Part shown: piece after piece, positions 14,220 to 20,449 of the stretch
Layout of the letters: each line of letters starts with the position of its first letter
Position numbering within the stretch: the first letter of the stretch is position 1
Virus record (IMG/VR): IMGVR_UViG_2833778570_000001
Coordinates: 14,239 to 78,238 of that record
DNA length: 64,000 nt
Origin: a virus
Taxonomy: Duplodnaviria > Caudoviricetes
Reading direction: 5' to 3' (one strand)
Made by a program: the position numbers and the translations under genes
Notes under the pieces: model-generated
The model's database searches: none
The model's input: only the letters and a program-made list of their open reading frames with translations
What the model was told of the DNA's origin: nothing

Positions 14220-14759
14220 TTACGCTGTCACACCGACTGCCCTCTCTTTCCCGACGCCGAGCAGCCAGTCACGAAAGGCGGGCCAGGAGTTCTCGGTGAT
14301 GAGCCCTCGCACGAAGGCGTTCGCCTGCCACTCGCGGATGAGCCCCTCGCCGCGCTGGAGTAGCCAGGGCCTCTCGCGGGCGGTCCGCTGCTCCAGCATG
14401 TACTTCTCGAACTCGGCCACCGTCTCCTCGAAGGTGGCCAGCGGGTTGTAGACGAGCCAGTCGTAGCCCTTGTCCTTCGCGTAGAAGCGCTCGTCCTGGG
14501 CCGCCATCTCGACGGTGGAGTACTTCCCCCAGTCGTCGCTGCTACCCGGGGCCGCGCCCCCGGACTCCATTTGCAGCAACTCCTGCTCGAGCGCCGTCTT
14601 CTTCACCAGCGTGGCGGAGTTCACCTCGGCGGCTGCGCGCGACAGCGCGGCCGAGGCGTCCAACTGCCCCTTGATGCGGGCGATCTCCAGCCGCAGGTCC
14701 CGCTTCCGGGCCTCGGCGGCGTTGATGGCGTAGACGTCGCTCTGCGTGAGGGCGGGCAT
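14220..14759 (-). CDS. hypothetical tail-associated protein (179 aa)
   Basis: Directly follows the tail fibre gene with an AGGAG RBS. Confidence 0.7.
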   Translation of the reverse strand: MPALTQSDVYAINAAEARKRDLRLEIARIKGQLDASAALSRAAAEVNSATLVKKTALEQELLQMESGGAAPGSSDDWGKYSTVEMAAQDERFYAKDKGYDWLVYNPLATFEETVAEFEKYMLEQRTARERPWLLQRGEGLIREWQANAFVRGLITENSWPAFRDWLLGVGKERAVGVTA

Positions 14760-14768
14760 GGCCGACTC

Positions 14769-16898
14769 CTAGATGGGCTGCTTGATGTTGTGGCTGAGGA
14801 GGCCCGCGGACTCGTAAGTGCGGGCCCCGTGCACGGTGAGCTTCACGACGGCGCCCTCCCCTTCCGGCGCCACGCGGCGGACCAAGCCCGGGCGCAGTCC
14901 CTCCAGCAGTTCGCCGGGACGCAATGCGCGCAGCTCCGTCCAGCCCGCGAAGCGCCGGTAGACGAGGTGGTTGGGCGTTGCCACCAGGACACGGCCGTCG
15001 GTGAGCTCCACCCGCCAGCGCGCGGCGCGGTGGATGGAGGCGGCCACCACCTCGAATACGCCCACGCGGCGCGTGTCCTCGTGCTGGGTGAGGACGCGCA
15101 TACCCGGGCGAAGGGACGCCGCTGGTACCTCCCGCCTGTCCTCCAGGGCAATGGGCGTCTCGGGCGCGACGCACGTGCCGCCCGTCCCGCCGGAGCCGCC
15201 TCCCTCGCCGCCCGAGGGCCCCCCGCCGAAAGGCGAGGCAGTGGACTTCGCGAAGTTGATGCCCACCCCGGCGTTGTAGACGGGCGAGAACCACATGGAG
15301 GCGCTCACGCCGTAGACGCCGTGCACCTCACAGAGGAGCGCGACGTACTCCCCCAGGTTCTGCCCCCAGAGTCCCGCGAGGGCCGCCGGGGACTGGAAGG
15401 TGTGGCTGATGGCGACGCGGTTGAGCGCGTTGCCCTCCACGGCCGAAGCGTACTTCCGGTCCGGCAGGGGGATGTAGCGCGTGCCCCGGTACGTGGCGCT
15501 GACGCTGCTGTAGTAGTCCACCTTGAGGTAGCGGAGCGCATCCAGGTTGTCGTCGATGCTGGAGGGCTGGATGAAGAAGTGGTGCACCAGCCAGGAGTGG
15601 ACGATGGGCGTCGTGTACCGGAAGTAGTCCGTGCACTGGACGTCCAGCCTGTCGATGAGCGGTGCGCCTCCGCGCACGCCCGTGTTGTTGCTGCCCCGGT
15701 AGTGGACGCGCCCCGCGGCCGACGTGCCGTCCAGCGCCTGGTTCGCCCTGAAGAAGGGCGTGTCCAGGAGGTAGCTGCCGATTTGGACGTTTCCACCGGC
15801 CGCCTTGAAGGCGGTGCCCACGTTGTCCAGCTTCGCTCCGGCCACGGGCACGCCGTTGCCGTCCTCCGCATAGTTGGACGTCTGGAGGGTGTTGGCCACC
15901 AGCAGGTCGAACGTCACCATCTTCCGCATGGAGACGGCGTCCAGGTACACGGCCTTCCCCGTGTCGGAATTGGCGGCGTTGATCTCGAAGTACAGCTGGA
16001 CGCCGGTGCACCCCGCCGGGCAGGTGCCCTTCACCTTCACGCGCTGGTACGAGGTGGTGAGCGTGACGAAGGTGCTCGTGGACTGGCCGCCATAGGCACC
16101 GCTGGCATCCTCCCAGAGGAGAATCAGGTTGGCGCCAGGCTGGGCGAGCGCGGCGGAGGACTTCACCCAGGCCTCCGCGTAGAAGGAGTCCCCCGCGGTG
16201 CATTTGATGCGTCCTCCCGGGGCAGCGCTTTGGAAGCCGCCGATGAAGTTGAGCCCCGTGAATCCACCACCGCTGGGCACCACCAGCTTGCGGCACCGGC
16301 GCCCCTCCTTCGCGTTGACGGGCTCCTCCACCAACGCGTCGCCCTCGGGGGACTTCCCCTGCGCATCCGCCTCCGAGTAGCCGTTGGGCACCAGGTTGTC
16401 CGTGGGCGGCAGCAGCAGGTGGGTGAAGCTGATGGCCGCCGTCGCCACCGCGGCACTGGTGACGGAGCTGGCCGACATGTGCCTGGCGTAGACGCTGCCG
16501 GTGGGGACGTTGGAGAGGTCCGCCACGGCCATGGTGACGGTGTCCGGGTCGGCCACCACGCCACCACCGAGGACACGCCAGCTGCTCTGGCTACCGTTGG
16601 TGTAGAGGGCCTGGACGGCGCACTGAACCTCCGTCTGCAGCGTCAGCTTCAGCGGCGCCACCCACCGCCTTTCCGAGGGGCCGAACTTCCGCGGCTCCAG
16701 CAGGTAGCTGTCGGTGTTGTTGGGGTCGCTGCCCTCGTAAACCACTACCTGGAAGCCCGAGAGGAGGTGCGCGGGGAGCACCTCGTCGTGCGTCCAGCGA
16801 ATGTCCAGGTAGCGCGACTTGATGAGCTGCGGAGAGCGGACGCCGTCCACCTCGCGGTCGTAGATGCCGGCCGCTTCCTCCTGCTCGCGCGAGCGCAT
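14769..16898 (-). CDS. tail tip/receptor-binding protein (gpJ C-terminal-like half) with C-terminal Hint domain
   Basis: CBM-like NLVPNGYSE module, gpJ-type LQTSNY..GAKLD segment, Gly linker, then CVAPETPI..ATPNH..LTVHGARTY..LSHN-IKQPI. Confidence 0.8.
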   Translation of the reverse strand: MRSREQEEAAGIYDREVDGVRSPQLIKSRYLDIRWTHDEVLPAHLLSGFQVVVYEGSDPNNTDSYLLEPRKFGPSERRWVAPLKLTLQTEVQCAVQALYTNGSQSSWRVLGGGVVADPDTVTMAVADLSNVPTGSVYARHMSASSVTSAAVATAAISFTHLLLPPTDNLVPNGYSEADAQGKSPEGDALVEEPVNAKEGRRCRKLVVPSGGGFTGLNFIGGFQSAAPGGRIKCTAGDSFYAEAWVKSSAALAQPGANLILLWEDASGAYGGQSTSTFVTLTTSYQRVKVKGTCPAGCTGVQLYFEINAANSDTGKAVYLDAVSMRKMVTFDLLVANTLQTSNYAEDGNGVPVAGAKLDNVGTAFKAAGGNVQIGSYLLDTPFFRANQALDGTSAAGRVHYRGSNNTGVRGGAPLIDRLDVQCTDYFRYTTPIVHSWLVHHFFIQPSSIDDNLDALRYLKVDYYSSVSATYRGTRYIPLPDRKYASAVEGNALNRVAISHTFQSPAALAGLWGQNLGEYVALLCEVHGVYGVSASMWFSPVYNAGVGINFAKSTASPFGGGPSGGEGGGSGGTGGTCVAPETPIALEDRREVPAASLRPGMRVLTQHEDTRRVGVFEVVAASIHRAARWRVELTDGRVLVATPNHLVYRRFAGWTELRALRPGELLEGLRPGLVRRVAPEGEGAVVKLTVHGARTYESAGLLSHNIKQPI

Positions 16899-16908
16899 GC
16901 CCTCCCGT

Positions 16909-19389
16909 TTAGGGAGGCGGCGTGGACGAAATCCCCAGCGTGAGGGTGGCCGGCACCGTGGGCACGGACACCACCAGGGCGCTCGCCGCGCCGGTGCTGT
17001 AGTTGCCCGAGGTGTCGATGGCCTTCACGTGCACCAGGTGGTTGACGCCCGGCGGCGGCAGTGCCCACTCGTAGGTGGTGGCGCGCACCTTGCCGATGAG
17101 GGTGCCTGCCTCCCAGCTGGCGCCGTAGCGCAGCTCGTAGGTGTCCCTGTCCAGGTCCGGCACCTCCGCCCAGCGCAGCGTCGCGGTGCTGCCGTTGAGG
17201 GCACAGGTGAGGCCCGTCACGTCGGAGGGCGGCGCAGCCTTGCCCACGACGGTGTAGCTGGCCGAGGCGTAGGTGGTGACGAGGCCGTTGAGGACGGCGG
17301 CCACCTGCACGGTGTACGCGCCCGGCAGGCAGTCCAGCAACTCCCAGTAGTGCGTCTGCACCGGCGTCTCCAACGTCCAGTTGCCGCCCTCGCGCTGCCA
17401 GCGCACCCGGTACTCGGTGGCGGTGGCCACCTGCGTCCACCGGGCCGTCGCCATGACTTTCACGCCGCCATTCGTCGTCTTGTACAGCGACTCGCCCACC
17501 GCAAGGCCTGCGGGTGGCGCAGACAAAGGCAGCACGGACGTAGGCAGCGGCTGCAGCTTCACTCCGTACTCCACCTCCGCGTACTTCCCCGGCTCGTGGC
17601 GCAGGGCGGTGATTTCGTAGAGGTGCGGCTCCACCTCCGCCACGTTGAGGATGCGCCAGAGGGTGGGCGTCAAGTCGGACGCGGCCAGCACCCAGACGGC
17701 CTGGGGCTGGGGCGCGGCAGAGAAGGGCGTGGCCACGGTGAGGGCGCGGTAGGGCGCCGGTGCGAGCGCGGCCAGCGGGCGCTCCTCCACGGTGCCATCC
17801 GGTAGCACTGCGGAGAGGGCGTACGTCTTCCCGGCTTCCAGGGTGACGTCCGCGTCGAACTCCACCTGGCTGGCGGTGGCAGCCACCACGCGCCCGCCCC
17901 ACCGGCGTCCGGCCCGGTACGGGTCCTGGAGCTTCACCACGGCGCCGGGGTTGCGCATGGCGCCCTCGAAGCCGGTGCGGAACGTCACCGTCTCCGTCTC
18001 CAGCCTCTCGGTGAGGAGGAGCCACCGGCCCACGCGCTGCGCCTGGCCCCGGGAAGTACAGCCGAGCGCCACCACCTCGGTGGGGTTGTAGCCGTAGGTG
18101 GCGAGGCCCTCCTCGTCGGTGACGTACTCCTGCGCCGCCTTGAAGTGGTTGTCCGGGTCATTCCACGTCACCAGCGCGACGGTGTGCCGCGCGCGCTTCC
18201 CGCTGGAGGCGTAGGTGAAGAGGCCGTCCACCACGTTGGCCGGCGTGAAGAGGTACTCGGCGTCGCGCGGCGCGTCCTGGGCGACGAAGACGGCGCCGGA
18301 GGCCCAGTACGTCATGCCTCTGAAAACGGACGCGAGGTTGTTGATGACCTTGTACGCGTCCTCCTGCGTCTGGAGGTAGAGGTTGCAGCGGAAGCGCGGC
18401 TCCGTGCCGCCCTTCCCGTCCGGCACCAGCTCGTCGCAGTACTTCGCCACCGTGTAGAGGCCCCATTTGTCCACCGCGGCCTCGTTGAGGTAGCGGCCCA
18501 GGCCGTAGCGCTTCGTCGTGAGGAGGTCGTAGAAGCACCAAGCCGGGTTGTCCGTCCAGGCCACCTTCCACGTGCCGTCCCAGGTGCCCTCGTACGTCCG
18601 GGCCACGGGGCTGTAGTTGCTGGGCACGCGCACCCGCAGCCCGCGAATCCGGTAGCTGCGCGTGGGGATGTTGCTGAACTGGCTGGCCGCCACCTGCAGC
18701 GCGCACAGCGCGGTGTTGGGGAAGCTGAGCTTCTCGTCCAGCAGCGTCGCGTAGGACTTCCAGATGACCTTGTTCTGCGTCGTCACGCTGTCCGCGTCCT
18801 CGCTGACGCGCGTGACGCGGATGTCCCAGGGCGGAGAGCCCGTCAGCTCCACGCGAAAGGTGCGCTCGTAGGGGCTGGTGCACTTCCCCCGGAAGAGTTC
18901 GGCGTCCTGGAAGGACTGCACCACGTACCCGCCCCCGTTGCTCTGCACAGCGATGGAGACGAGGACGCGGGTGGGCTTCAAGTCGCCCGTCGTGGGGTCC
19001 TGGTAGGTGAGCTGGGGCACCTGGAGGGTGACGCGCACGGCGTCCACCTCCGGGTCCGACACCGTGCGCACCACCGGCGTGGCGCGCTTCACCTCGACGC
19101 CCACGGAGTGCTCCGCCTCGCCGGAGGGGAAGCCTGGGATGTACTCCTGCGACTGGGTGCCCTTCACGTCGTACACGGTGACGCCCGTGAAGTTGAAAGT
19201 GCCGTCGGGATTCTGGATGGCGACGCCGTCCAGGTAGACGGACTTCAGCCCGTCCACGAGGCCCTGAATCTCCCCCTCGCATAGCAAGTCCACCACGCGC
19301 GCCTTGGAGCTGGACTTCAGTGTGTTGGGAGACTCGACAGGGGTGCGCTGAGCGCCGCCCTCCCCTTTTCCGCCGCTGCTGCCGCCCAT
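16909..19389 (-). CDS. central tail fibre / host specificity protein J (N-terminal part)
   Basis: DLLCEGEIQGLVDG, WTDNPAWCFYDLLT..RYGLG, EPRFRCN, F..ANVVDG.F.Y motifs of lambda gpJ family; FN3-like C-terminus. Confidence 0.92.
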   Translation of the reverse strand: MGGSSGGKGEGGAQRTPVESPNTLKSSSKARVVDLLCEGEIQGLVDGLKSVYLDGVAIQNPDGTFNFTGVTVYDVKGTQSQEYIPGFPSGEAEHSVGVEVKRATPVVRTVSDPEVDAVRVTLQVPQLTYQDPTTGDLKPTRVLVSIAVQSNGGGYVVQSFQDAELFRGKCTSPYERTFRVELTGSPPWDIRVTRVSEDADSVTTQNKVIWKSYATLLDEKLSFPNTALCALQVAASQFSNIPTRSYRIRGLRVRVPSNYSPVARTYEGTWDGTWKVAWTDNPAWCFYDLLTTKRYGLGRYLNEAAVDKWGLYTVAKYCDELVPDGKGGTEPRFRCNLYLQTQEDAYKVINNLASVFRGMTYWASGAVFVAQDAPRDAEYLFTPANVVDGLFTYASSGKRARHTVALVTWNDPDNHFKAAQEYVTDEEGLATYGYNPTEVVALGCTSRGQAQRVGRWLLLTERLETETVTFRTGFEGAMRNPGAVVKLQDPYRAGRRWGGRVVAATASQVEFDADVTLEAGKTYALSAVLPDGTVEERPLAALAPAPYRALTVATPFSAAPQPQAVWVLAASDLTPTLWRILNVAEVEPHLYEITALRHEPGKYAEVEYGVKLQPLPTSVLPLSAPPAGLAVGESLYKTTNGGVKVMATARWTQVATATEYRVRWQREGGNWTLETPVQTHYWELLDCLPGAYTVQVAAVLNGLVTTYASASYTVVGKAAPPSDVTGLTCALNGSTATLRWAEVPDLDRDTYELRYGASWEAGTLIGKVRATTYEWALPPPGVNHLVHVKAIDTSGNYSTGAASALVVSVPTVPATLTLGISSTPPP

Positions 19390-19390
19390 G

Positions 19391-20449
19391 TCAGTCCACC
19401 ACCGTCGGGTCCGCCTTCTTCACGTTGTGGCTGAGGAGGCCGTCGGAGACGTAGGTGTGCGCGCCGGCCACGGTGAGGCGCACCACGGGCCCGTGCTCGC
19501 CCCGCGTCACCTGGCGCACCACGCCCGGCCGCGTGCCCACCAGCCGCACGCCGGCCGAGAGGTGGCGCAGCTCCATCCAGGCGTCCTCCGTCCGCACGCG
19601 GTGGTTGCCGGTGGCCTCCAGGCGCCGACCGTCCTCCAGCTCCAGCAACCACCGCACGCCTTCGGCGGGCTCCGCAGCGGTGACGAGGAAGTCTCCCCAC
19701 TCCAGCGTCTCCTCGTCCTGGGTGCGCACCAGCATGCCCACCTGGACTTCGCCCGCGGGCACCTCGCGCCCGTCCGCCAGGAGAATCGGCACCCACGGCG
19801 CGGGGCACGTGCCGCCGCCCGCTGGGGTTCCGCCGGGCCCCGTCTGCCCGCTGCCACCACTGCCCCCGAAGCCGCCGTCGGACCACTCAGTGACGAAGCC
19901 GGCGGAGACGACGCAGCTGCCCACTTCCATCTCTCCGTAGCAGATGGGCACCGGGTGGCCCTGGGCGAGCGTGTTGACGGGGCCATTGAAGACGTAGCTG
20001 GGCTTGTTGGCGTCGTCCTCGTCGGGCCCGGTGGCGGTGGGCGGGGCGAAGAGGAGCTGCGAGACGCCGCCCACCACCAGGGAAATGCCCGCGGTGATGA
20101 GGGGCACGCCCGCGCCGTACCCGTAGACGGTGAGGACGGCGCCGGCGGCGATGAGCACCGCGCCCGCTACCACCTGGAACCAGCCGGACTTCGCCCCGGC
20201 CAGGGCCGGCATGAAGGTGAGGACACGCGCGCCGGTGGGCATGCCCAGGTCGTCCTCACCGACGTCCCGCTTGCCCGCGAAGACGTGGTAGCCGGGCTCG
20301 CTGTTCTCGGCCAGGTAGCGGCGGAAGCCGTCGCAGACGGCGGAGAGGGCCCGCACCGCCTCCGCAGGCGAGGGCACGGAGAGGTCCAGCTTCCACACGC
20401 GCCCGAAGCGCTTCCCCAGGGGCCCGCCCAGGACGATGGTCGTCAGCAT
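19391..20449 (-). CDS. tail assembly protein I (ubiquitin-like) fused to a C-terminal Hint domain
   Basis: LGGPLGKRFGRVWKL...SPAEAVRAL, SYVFNGPVNT.AQGHPVPICYG (gpI); then Gly linker and CPAPW..ATGNH..LTVAGAHTY..LSHN-VKKADPTVVD. Confidence 0.88.
   Translation of the reverse strand: MLTTIVLGGPLGKRFGRVWKLDLSVPSPAEAVRALSAVCDGFRRYLAENSEPGYHVFAGKRDVGEDDLGMPTGARVLTFMPALAGAKSGWFQVVAGAVLIAAGAVLTVYGYGAGVPLITAGISLVVGGVSQLLFAPPTATGPDEDDANKPSYVFNGPVNTLAQGHPVPICYGEMEVGSCVVSAGFVTEWSDGGFGGSGGSGQTGPGGTPAGGGTCPAPWVPILLADGREVPAGEVQVGMLVRTQDEETLEWGDFLVTAAEPAEGVRWLLELEDGRRLEATGNHRVRTEDAWMELRHLSAGVRLVGTRPGVVRQVTRGEHGPVVRLTVAGAHTYVSDGLLSHNVKKADPTVVD

What the first reader, a model, noticed from the sequence alone, without database searches (positions are those of the whole stretch)
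14769..15240. Second, paralogous Hint domain caps the receptor-binding tail protein
Seen: the 709-aa tail tip protein ends in GGGPSGGEGGGSGGTGGT|CVAPETPI..ATPNH..VKLTVHGARTY..LSHN|IKQPI (Hint 14787-15173). By manual alignment about half the residues are identical to the gpI Hint, and the same GGT-C junction is used. In both copies the block-F position that is usually a catalytic Asp is Lys/Arg. Established: many tail fibres end in a self-cleaving S74 chaperone at this position. Inference: Hint is a functional analogue (removable folding chaperone or maturation switch), or it attaches a ligand to the fibre tip. Retention of two copies with intact motifs argues for selection rather than a parasitic intein.
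Basis: partly seen in the sequence, partly recalled or inferred. Interest (0 to 1): 0.75.

Follow-up and report, generated by a model that had tools for sequence, protein, structure and literature searches.

The report
Self-processing Hint cap on tail fibre
The outermost tail-fibre protein of this myxobacterial prophage ends in a small intein-like (Hint) domain that keeps all the residues needed to cut itself off; it is one more member of a large, apparently unstudied family of such caps on phage tail proteins, and cutting has not been shown.

Summary
Observation confirmed. The 709-aa protein (14769-16898, minus strand) ends in a Gly-rich linker, GGT|Cys576, a 129-residue Hint domain, His703-Asn704, then IKQPI and the stop. 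The domain is 53% identical to the one that ends gpI (E 2e-36). It folds as a mini-intein (pLDDT 90.6; Z 20.4 to the NpuDnaB intein, 19.9 to the Clostridium thermocellum BIL domain).

It is not a splicing intein: +1 is Ile, the block-F Asp position is Lys, and there is no endonuclease. It fits type-A bacterial intein-like (BIL / PT-HINT) domains.

It belongs to a large family. In 132 relatives Cys1 and the block-B His are kept in all, and His-Asn in 99%. Lys sits at +1 or +2 in 143 of 146. Most members cap phage tail proteins.

- The 709-aa protein is the split-off distal half of a J-like central fibre.
- 41 of 43 homologous fibre ends carry the Hint.
- The two that lack it stop right after the poly-Gly linker.
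- The gpI and fibre Hints are old, separate lineages, and they need not co-occur.

Most likely the domain is a self-removing maturation cap. Ligation through the lysine stays open. Cleavage is unproven.

This scan has met the same family before on other DNA (53 notes in at least 47 genomes).

The parts
14769..16898 (-). 709-aa distal central-fibre protein (split-off C-terminal half of a gpJ-like protein), including the stop codon
   Evidence: ORF list. In P0044 (1380 aa) and P0098 (1500 aa) the gpJ part, this protein's N-part and the Hint lie in one chain. NCBI names close homologues 'Hint domain-containing protein'.
16554..16811 (-). FN3-like beta domain (residues ~30-115)
   Evidence: AlphaFold model mddeb89470636, strands at pLDDT 80-89. 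BLASTP links residues 22-131 to the FN3-rich parts of other J-like proteins. The fold class is inferred and was not searched separately.
15915..16406 (-). Carbohydrate-binding-module-like jelly roll (residues ~165-328)
   Evidence: VIA-align Z 11-13.6 to CBM4-2, CBM61, CBM16, CBM22 and to phage fibre or tailspike domains (CBA120 TSP4, Kp7 gp52, phi812 baseplate). Weak NCBIfam GTA_spike_fiber hit and phrog_30740 minor tail protein hit.
15231..15701 (-). 'Pre-Hint' beta-sandwich domain (residues 400-556) that travels with the Hint
   Evidence: pLDDT ~85. It is followed by Gly linker plus Hint in 41 of 43 homologous loci. The Atlas lead to the J C-terminal receptor-binding domain Ig_GpJ_C scores only 0.78. 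Pfam and PDB sequence searches give no support.
15174..15230 (-). Gly-rich linker FGGGPSGGEGGGSGGTGGT (residues 557-575), the N-extein end
   Evidence: Read from the DNA. pLDDT is below 50. Across the family the median Gly content of the 12 residues before Cys1 is 42%.
14787..15173 (-). Hint / type-A BIL-like domain, Cys576 to Asn704 (block B TPNH with His644; block F VVKLTVHGARTY; block G LLSHN)
14772..14786 (-). Five-residue C-extein IKQPI, with the family-invariant Lys at +2 (Lys706)
   Evidence: (Lys at +1 or +2 in 143/146).
19391..20449 (-). gpI-like tail assembly protein carrying the other Hint copy (Hint 19424-19807; C-extein VKKADPTVVD 19394-19423)
   Evidence: phrog_32 tail assembly protein E 2e-54. 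Weak Pfam Lambda_tail_I hit. Hint alignment.
16909..19389 (-). gpJ-like proximal half of the central fibre (826 aa)
   Evidence: Pfam FNIII-A_GpJ 9e-38 and Phage-tail_3 1e-26. phrog_31 central tail fiber J 4e-286.
14220..14759 (-). 179-aa ORF of unknown family, 9 nt after the fibre stop; a conserved neighbour of many Hint-capped fibres
   Evidence: No Pfam, NCBIfam or PHROG hit. tblastn finds it directly downstream of the Hint in L003/4, L007, L008, L010, L011, L018-L022, L024, L028 and L042, but not in the M. xanthus 1080-aa class or in the Hint-less loci.

Best explanation
The last 134 residues are a type-A bacterial-intein-like (BIL / PT-HINT-type) Hint domain that acts as a single-use, self-removing cap on the distal end of the central tail fibre.

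Proposed course:
1. After translation, Cys576 attacks the Thr575 carbonyl (N-to-S acyl shift, helped by block-B Thr/His644). This gives a thioester at the end of the flexible Gly-rich linker.
2. No +1 nucleophile and no block-F Asp are present, so no branched splicing intermediate forms.
3. The thioester is resolved mainly by hydrolysis, or by an amine. The mature fibre is released, ending in ...GGTGGT.
4. Asn704 cyclisation detaches the IKQPI tail.

The cap is needed only transiently. It may keep the receptor-binding end soluble or unassembled, or it may time trimer or tail-tip assembly. That would make it work like the self-cleaving C-terminal chaperones of other fibres without being related to them.

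Shown here: the fold, the motifs, selection, the family-wide architecture, and natural Hint-less ends. Inferred: every chemical step, and the biological purpose.
For: - Hint fold and homology.
- Catalytic set conserved: Cys1 132/132, block-B His 132/132, His-Asn 131/132. These residues are invariant in 59 terminal-cap proteins and in 27 fibre homologues.
- dN/dS 0.13 for the Hint against L003 and L004.
- +1 is A/V/I/L/M/K in most members and never Cys. The F:4 position is K/R, never Asp. This matches type-A BILs, for which cleavage products dominate (PMC4031507, read).
- 91 of 146 family members have the Hint at the very C-terminus with a 2-20-residue tail, most often 4-6.
- The carriers are phage tail proteins: Phage-tail_3 in 18/59, Rcc01698_C, gpI, CBMs, and PHROG tail families.
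- Two natural homologues of the same fibre end 5-7 residues after the poly-Gly run, with no Hint in any frame or anywhere in their records. One of those records is 100% complete. One of the two homologues is sister (58% identity, SH-aLRT 95) to a Hint-bearing fibre. So a fibre ending at the linker exists in nature; whether those phages are infective was not tested.
Against: - No biochemical or proteomic datum exists for any member that I could find.
- If only N-terminal cleavage mattered, as in Hedgehog, the strict retention of His-Asn and of a Lys just after it would be unexplained.
- The fibre copy has Arg where 78% of the family has the block-F His (F:13) that aids Asn cyclisation in inteins.
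- Hint-less variants fit equally well with a retained, dispensable domain.
- The window's own sequence does not reach the Pfam PT-HINT threshold.
Confidence: 0.55

Rival explanations
1. Lysine-directed ligation ('side-chain splicing' or cross-linking). The thioester at Thr575 is attacked by an amine, not by water. The amine could be the epsilon-amine of the invariant Lys706, the free alpha-amine of Ile705 after Asn cyclisation, or a Lys of a neighbouring subunit or tail protein. The Hint then leaves, and the fibre end carries a short branched or peptide-linked tail or is covalently tied into the tail tip.
For: - Lys is at +1 or +2 in 143 of 146 family members. It is invariant in both copies here and in all 27 fibre homologues.
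- His-Asn is kept although the C-extein is only 4-6 residues, which suggests the C-terminal reaction matters.
- The Hint resembles Tetrahymena BUBL BIL2 (Z 19.8, TM 0.84-0.87). BIL2 is reported to form a Lys isopeptide without ATP (PMC8616854).
- Type-A BILs can ligate through the freed amine (PMC4031507).
Against: - No product has been observed.
- Lys may instead be catalytic, structural, or simply part of the last strand.
- The tail has low model confidence (pLDDT below 50), so geometry cannot be judged.
- For type-A BILs, cleavage dominates over ligation (PMC4031507).
- Hint-less natural variants end in unrelated tails (RGYYTP, IRVN) without the xKxx peptide.
Confidence: 0.22
2. Retained reactive or structural tip. 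The Hint stays on the virion as the outermost knob. It would be either a plain binding or structural domain, or a latent thioester 'warhead' that couples the fibre covalently to a nucleophile on the host surface on contact.
For: - It sits at the very tip of the receptor-binding fibre, next to a CBM-like domain and a possible J-type receptor-binding domain.
- The catalytic residues are conserved.
Against: - A purely structural role does not explain invariant Cys1, His and His-Asn.
- The same cap is on gpI, which works in tail assembly in lambda-type phages (established knowledge) and is not a surface tip.
- The long floppy Gly linker is a poor connection for a receptor-binding knob.
- Hint-less fibres exist.
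Confidence: 0.1
3. Decaying or parasitic mini-intein remnant with no function for the phage.
For: - Inteins are frequent in phage genes.
- The domain is intein-sized and its closest solved relatives are DnaB and RecA mini-inteins.
Against: - There is no homing endonuclease, no insertion into a conserved host site, and only a 5-residue C-extein with no +1 nucleophile.
- dN/dS is 0.13.
- The motifs are intact in 131-132 of 132 relatives.
- The same architecture is kept on unrelated tail proteins and across three myxobacterial genera.
Confidence: 0.03

Closest known systems
Type-A bacterial intein-like (BIL) domains / Pfam PT-HINT (PF07591); solved example Clostridium thermocellum BIL, PDB 2lwy
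   Same: - Mini Hint fold (Z 19.9, rmsd 1.6 over 130 residues).
- Cys1, block-B His and C-terminal His-Asn present; no +1 nucleophile; no endonuclease.
- It lies in a variable surface protein, not in a conserved enzyme.
- Family relatives pass the PT-HINT gathering score.
- The profile hits 2lwy at E 5e-5.
   Different: - The classical examples precede a sizeable C-terminal domain (toxin, adhesin). Here the C-extein is 5 residues, with a near-invariant Lys.
- The carrier is a phage tail fibre.
- The window's own sequence does not reach the PT-HINT threshold.
- Activity is untested.
Tetrahymena thermophila BUBL1 BIL2 (PDB 6TMM / 6Y75)
   Same: - Hint fold (Z 19.8; TM 0.84-0.87).
- The N-extein ends in a Gly-rich stretch.
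- A lysine amine is a possible acceptor of the thioester (PMC8616854).
   Different: - BIL2 lies between two ubiquitin-like domains, and its acceptor Lys is in the downstream Ubl. Here there is no Ubl on the fibre and only a pentapeptide downstream.
- Sequence identity is 14-16%.
- Isopeptide formation here is speculation.
Class 1 mini-inteins (NpuDnaB 4o1r, Ssp DnaB, Mtu RecA)
   Same: - Best sequence and fold matches: E 1.2e-7, Z 20.4, 24-28% identity.
- Blocks A, B, F and G can be aligned.
   Different: - +1 is Ile, not Cys/Ser/Thr.
- Block-F Asp is replaced by Lys.
- It is not inserted in a conserved host protein, so canonical splicing is excluded.
Peptidase_S74 intramolecular chaperone domains of tailspikes and fibres (endosialidases, T5 pb1); from established knowledge
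   Same: - Position at the C-terminal end of a fibre.
- Presumed single-turnover self-removal after it has served during folding or assembly.
   Different: - Unrelated fold and chemistry: a Ser-Lys dyad protease with a trimeric helical chaperone, against a Cys thioester and Asn cyclisation in a Hint beta-fold.
- A chaperone role for the Hint is not shown.
Hedgehog C-terminal autoprocessing (Hog) domain, PDB 1at0
   Same: - C-terminal Hint that cleaves at its own N-terminus through a Cys thioester and passes the N-terminal product to an outside nucleophile.
- Z 18.2.
   Different: Hog has a sterol-recognition region and no terminal His-Asn. The phage domain keeps His-Asn and has no extra region.

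Membership tests
Hint (Hedgehog/intein) superfamily | All-beta horseshoe Hint fold | tested here: met
   AlphaFold pLDDT 90.6. Foldseek TM 0.85-0.88 to DnaB mini-inteins and BIL2. VIA-align Z 17-20 to more than 20 inteins, BIL and Hog.
Hint (Hedgehog/intein) superfamily | N-terminal Cys/Ser nucleophile and block-B (T)xxH | tested here: met
   Cys576 and T642-P-N-H644 are present. Cys1 and His are kept in 132/132 relatives.
Type-A BIL / PT-HINT | C-terminal His-Asn | tested here: met
   His703-Asn704 are invariant in A1, A2 and A3.
Type-A BIL / PT-HINT | No nucleophile at +1 | tested here: met
   +1 is Ile here. Across the family it is A/V/I/L/M/K in most, Ser or Thr in 9/146, Cys in 0.
Type-A BIL / PT-HINT | Match to the curated Pfam model PF07591 above its gathering score | tested here: not met
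   The window's Hint gives no PT-HINT hit even at E up to 10; only sub-threshold Vint, Hint and Intein_splicing hits appear. Relatives found with the family profile do pass, for example P0024 at 43.7 bits and P0056 at 34.7 bits against a cut-off of 27.7. Membership therefore rests on profile and fold, not on the Pfam model.
Type-A BIL / PT-HINT | Autocatalytic N- and/or C-terminal cleavage | not testable with these tools
   Needs expression and mass analysis.
Canonical (class 1) intein | Cys/Ser/Thr at +1 and ligation of two functional extein halves | tested here: not met
   +1 is Ile and the C-extein is IKQPI followed by the stop.
Canonical (class 1) intein | Block-F Asp (F:4) that coordinates the splicing steps | tested here: not met
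   Lys takes this place in the fibre and Arg in gpI. Across the family it is K/R in 75% and Asp in 0.
Peptidase_S74 intramolecular chaperone | S74 fold and sequence with a Ser-Lys dyad | tested here: not met
   The terminal domain is a Hint at Z 20. No S74 hit appears in Pfam at E up to 10. The resemblance is positional only.
BUBL-type BIL (Tetrahymena BIL2) | Flanked by ubiquitin-like domains; forms a Lys isopeptide | tested here: inconclusive
   The fold is similar (Z 19.8). No Ubl was found in the fibre model. The chemistry cannot be tested here.
Lambda J-type central tail fibre | Contiguity with the gpJ core (FNIII-A_GpJ, Phage-tail_3) and a distal receptor-binding part | tested here: met
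   The gpJ core lies in the preceding gene. In P0044 and P0098 the gpJ core, this protein's N-part and the Hint are fused in one chain. Similarity of the pre-Hint domain to the J receptor-binding domain Ig_GpJ_C is only an Atlas lead at 0.78.

The most novel reading that the evidence does not exclude
The Gly-linker / Hint / x-Lys-x-x module is a phage-encoded, ATP-independent protein ligation device. The Hint thioester at the fibre end is captured by the invariant lysine, either its own tail or a Lys of a neighbouring tail protein. This would give an isopeptide-branched or covalently cross-linked fibre tip, a chemistry so far reported only for a ciliate BIL. The same module on gpI would tie or time tail-tip assembly in the same way.
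Probability: 0.2. Interest if true: 0.8.

Novelty: new member of a known kind. Interest (0 to 1): 0.45.

Why it matters
If these caps really process themselves, a very large set of phage tail fibres and tip proteins mature by thioester chemistry that nobody has characterised. The profile search found 11,782 cluster representatives at E up to 1e-3.

That would affect three things:
- how receptor-binding proteins are annotated (the mature end is not the gene end);
- how they are expressed for structural or host-range work;
- whether a natural, compact, C-terminal self-cleaving or self-ligating tag exists that tolerates any Gly-rich N-extein.

This particular locus adds useful material:
- two diverged copies in one tail module;
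- natural Hint-less comparators;
- cultivable hosts (Corallococcus, Myxococcus) in which C576A, N704A and K706A mutants could be tested.

Tried and rejected
- Single-sequence Pfam, NCBIfam and PDB searches gave only sub-threshold or spurious hits. The WAVE1 hits, for example, came from the Gly-Ser linker. They were replaced by a 9-sequence profile.
- tblastn of the Hint against 50,697 GenBank phage records gave one weak hit in an unannotated faecal phage. No cultured, proteomically studied phage with this cap was found.
- Six literature searches found no study of Hint or BIL caps on phage tail proteins. The terms were BIL + phage tail; Hint + tail fiber; Hint + tail protein; intein-like + prophage; BUBL; and BIL alone. 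The 'Hint' mentions in phage papers concern terminase, helicase and RNR inteins.
- The pre-Hint domain could not be assigned. Pfam and PDB sequence searches were empty. Only an Atlas lead points to Ig_GpJ_C.
The tail has low confidence anyway.
- I rejected a recent tandem duplication of the two Hints (tree).
- I rejected obligatory pairing of the two Hints.
- I rejected a frameshifted hidden Hint in the two Hint-less loci.
Full report
**What is there**

The window is a high-GC prophage held as an IMG/VR provirus record of 78 kb. Its closest relatives are in Corallococcus. The tail genes lie on the minus strand in this order:
- a gpI-like protein (19391-20449);
- a gpJ-like protein of 826 aa (16909-19389; Pfam FNIII-A_GpJ and Phage-tail_3, phrog_31);
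- 10 nt later, the 709-aa protein of the finding (14769-16898);
- 9 nt later, a 179-aa ORF of unknown family (14220-14759).

The 709-aa protein ends in FGGGPSGGEGGGSGGTGGT, then Cys576, a 129-residue domain ending in His703-Asn704, then IKQPI and TAG. I read this directly from the DNA.

**Is it a Hint domain, and is it like the gpI copy?**

BLASTP of the two C-terminal domains gives 70/132 identities (53%), E 2e-36. Single-sequence searches are weak: Vint 20 bits, Hint 17.8 bits, both below Pfam's cut-offs.

A profile of nine copies from five prophages (A1) gives clear matches in the PDB:
- the NpuDnaB mini-intein over its whole length (4o1r, E 1.2e-7);
- the Clostridium thermocellum bacterial intein-like domain (2lwy, 5e-5);
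- Mtu RecA mini-inteins.

The AlphaFold model is confident (pLDDT 90.6). It superposes on mini-inteins, on 2lwy and on Tetrahymena BIL2 with TM 0.83-0.88 and Z 19.8-20.4.

**What kind of Hint?**

Three features rule out canonical splicing:
- The +1 residue is Ile.
- The C-extein has five residues.
- In the alignment with the RecA mini-intein, the block-F Asp position is Lys (Arg in gpI).

There is no endonuclease insert. Cys1, block-B TxxH and the terminal His-Asn are present. This is the definition of a type-A BIL domain. For these, reviews report that N- and C-terminal cleavage dominates and that weak ligation can occur through the amine freed by Asn cyclisation (PMC4031507; PMC7765530). The Pfam model for this type, PT-HINT, is passed by family relatives but not by the window's own sequence.

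**The family**

A profile search of 1.84 billion cluster representatives found these numbers of proteins:

| E-value limit | Proteins |
|---|---|
| 1e-3 | 11,782 |
| 1e-10 | 1,037 |
| 1e-30 | 97 |

Among the best 146:
- 91 carry the domain at the very C-terminus, with a tail of 2-20 residues, most often 4-6.
- Lys is at +1 or +2 in 143.
- +1 is never Cys.

In 132 well-aligned domains:

| Position | Residue and frequency |
|---|---|
| Cys1 | 100% |
| Block-B His | 100% |
| Terminal His-Asn | 99% |
| F:4 | Lys or Arg 75%, never Asp |
| F:13 | His 78% (Arg in this fibre, His in gpI) |
| 12 residues before Cys1 | 42% Gly (median) |

Of 59 terminal-cap proteins, 18 have Phage-tail_3. Others have Rcc01698_C, gpI, CBM or FN3 domains, and the PHROG hits are tail families. 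NCBI already calls the close homologues 'Hint domain-containing protein'. BFVD holds phage proteins labelled Hint, Tail protein I and Tip attachment protein J that resemble the model.

They are not peculiar to this phage.

**What the carrier is**

BLASTP shows that P0044 (1380 aa) and P0098 (1500 aa) contain, in one chain, a gpJ core, the N-part of this 709-aa protein, and the Hint. The 709-aa protein is therefore the split-off distal half of a J-like central fibre.

Its model (pLDDT 75.6) has these parts:

| Residues | Feature |
|---|---|
| ~30-115 | FN3-like domain |
| 165-328 | Jelly roll resembling carbohydrate-binding modules and phage fibre domains (Z 11-13.6) |
| 330-410 | Poorly modelled stretch |
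| 410-555 | Beta-sandwich, the 'pre-Hint' domain |
| 557-575 | Gly-rich linker |
| 576-704 | Hint |

A language-model search suggests that the pre-Hint domain resembles the C-terminal receptor-binding domain of J. The score is 0.78, so this is a lead only, and sequence searches do not support it. 'Receptor-binding' is thus plausible but inferred.

**Coupling and dispensability**

With an alignment of the pre-Hint domain (A4) I collected 43 loci from genomes and viral contigs. In 41, the same ORF continues through a Gly run into the Hint.

Two loci are different. In L023 and L030 the ORF stops 5-7 residues after the poly-Gly run and is followed at once by a lysozyme gene. No Hint is present in any frame or anywhere in their records, one of which is rated 100% complete. 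On a tree of the pre-Hint domain, L023 is sister to the Hint-bearing L041 (58% identity, SH-aLRT 95).

So a fibre ending where Hint N-cleavage would leave it occurs in nature, and the Hint has been lost or gained within this fibre family.

**The two copies**

- Both gpI and the fibre carry a Hint in the window, L003, L004, L007 (Pyxidicoccus), L008 (Myxococcus), G001 and G006.
- In G005, gpI ends without a Hint while the fibre has one.
- In M. xanthus-type elements with a different tail module, only the 1078-aa fibre has one.
- gpI-type Hints from three genera are 64-68% identical to the window's gpI copy. Fibre-type Hints are 54-58% identical to the fibre copy. Cross comparisons give about 50%.
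- On a tree of 101 domains the two types fall in separate groups with moderate support (SH-aLRT 83-91).

They are old paralogues that follow their carriers. They are not a recent duplication, and they are not an obligatory pair.

**Selection**

Against two prophages about 92% identical in protein, the Hint has dN/dS 0.13. The rest of the fibre has 0.13-0.20. More distant pairs are too saturated to use.

**Mechanism**

I think the most likely reading (0.55) is a single-use, self-removing cap:
1. An N-to-S acyl shift at Thr575-Cys576 forms a thioester.
2. The thioester is resolved without a branched intermediate, and the Hint is released.
3. Asn704 cyclisation detaches the pentapeptide.

The purpose would be to hold or time the folding or assembly of the receptor-binding end. 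This works like the S74 chaperones of other fibres, but the fold and the chemistry are unrelated.

The main rival (0.22) is ligation through the invariant lysine, or through the freed alpha-amine. It would explain why His-Asn and Lys are kept next to a tiny C-extein, and it has a precedent in Tetrahymena BIL2 (PMC8616854). A retained reactive or structural tip (0.10) and a decaying intein (0.03) are less likely. None of the chemistry has been shown for any member.

**Novelty**

The domain type is known, and databases flag these proteins. I found no paper on Hint caps of phage tail proteins.

This scan has reported the same family many times on other DNA: 53 notes in at least 47 genomes, including a follow-up on this prophage's gpI copy. 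My results were obtained independently and agree with those notes.

This locus is therefore a new member of a known kind.
- the split-J reading of the 709-aa protein;
- the tight coupling of the Hint to the pre-Hint domain;
- the natural Hint-less ends;
- the non-obligatory pairing with the gpI Hint;
- the conserved 179-aa neighbour.

Noticed in passing
window 14220-14759 (-); also L003 8415-8948, L007 10136-10657, L008 10124-10645, L042 3944-4495: A 179-aa ORF with no Pfam, NCBIfam or PHROG match starts 9 nt after the fibre stop; TAGGAG serves as both the stop codon and a Shine-Dalgarno-like site. It is conserved (36-92% identity) directly after Hint-capped fibres in many loci of the ~700-aa class and some of the 1047-1131-aa class. 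It is absent from the M. xanthus 1080-aa class and from the two Hint-less loci. It may be a fibre assembly partner.
   Followed up: partly
L023 961-3528 and L030 2554-3525: These are homologues of the same fibre end that stop just after a 12-14-residue poly-Gly run (tails RGYYTP and IRVN), followed by a lysozyme gene. Their whole records hold no Hint.
   Followed up: yes
P0038, P0133, P0087, P0080 (wide-search hits): These proteins consist of 3-5 or more tandem Hint domains joined only by HN-K-G(-G)-C junctions, so each domain's C-extein is the next domain's N-extein. What such arrays produce is unexplained.
   Followed up: no
P0040, P0042, P0052, P0056, P0077, P0102 and others (clade, SH-aLRT 97): A distinct clade of the same Hint family (FLSHN[VIM]K...) is not terminal. 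It is followed by 40-490 further residues without Pfam matches. One member (P0069) has RTX repeats upstream.
   Followed up: partly
P0008 (501 aa, Logan assembly): This is a close homologue whose reading frame changes within the last strands of the Hint (…TYESADSSATTSSS…). It is either a broken copy or an assembly error.
   Followed up: no
L007 3695-4426 and L008 3692-4414 (and the equivalent gene upstream of gpI in the window): A gpK-like protein with Prok-JAB plus NlpC/P60 domains directly precedes the Hint-bearing gpI in the related prophages.
   Followed up: no
L005 18183-19237 and L006 15614-17521: An AHH nuclease with an Imm11 immunity gene lies a few kb downstream of the Hint-capped fibre in the M. 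xanthus elements. This looks like toxin-immunity cargo next to the tail module.
   Followed up: no
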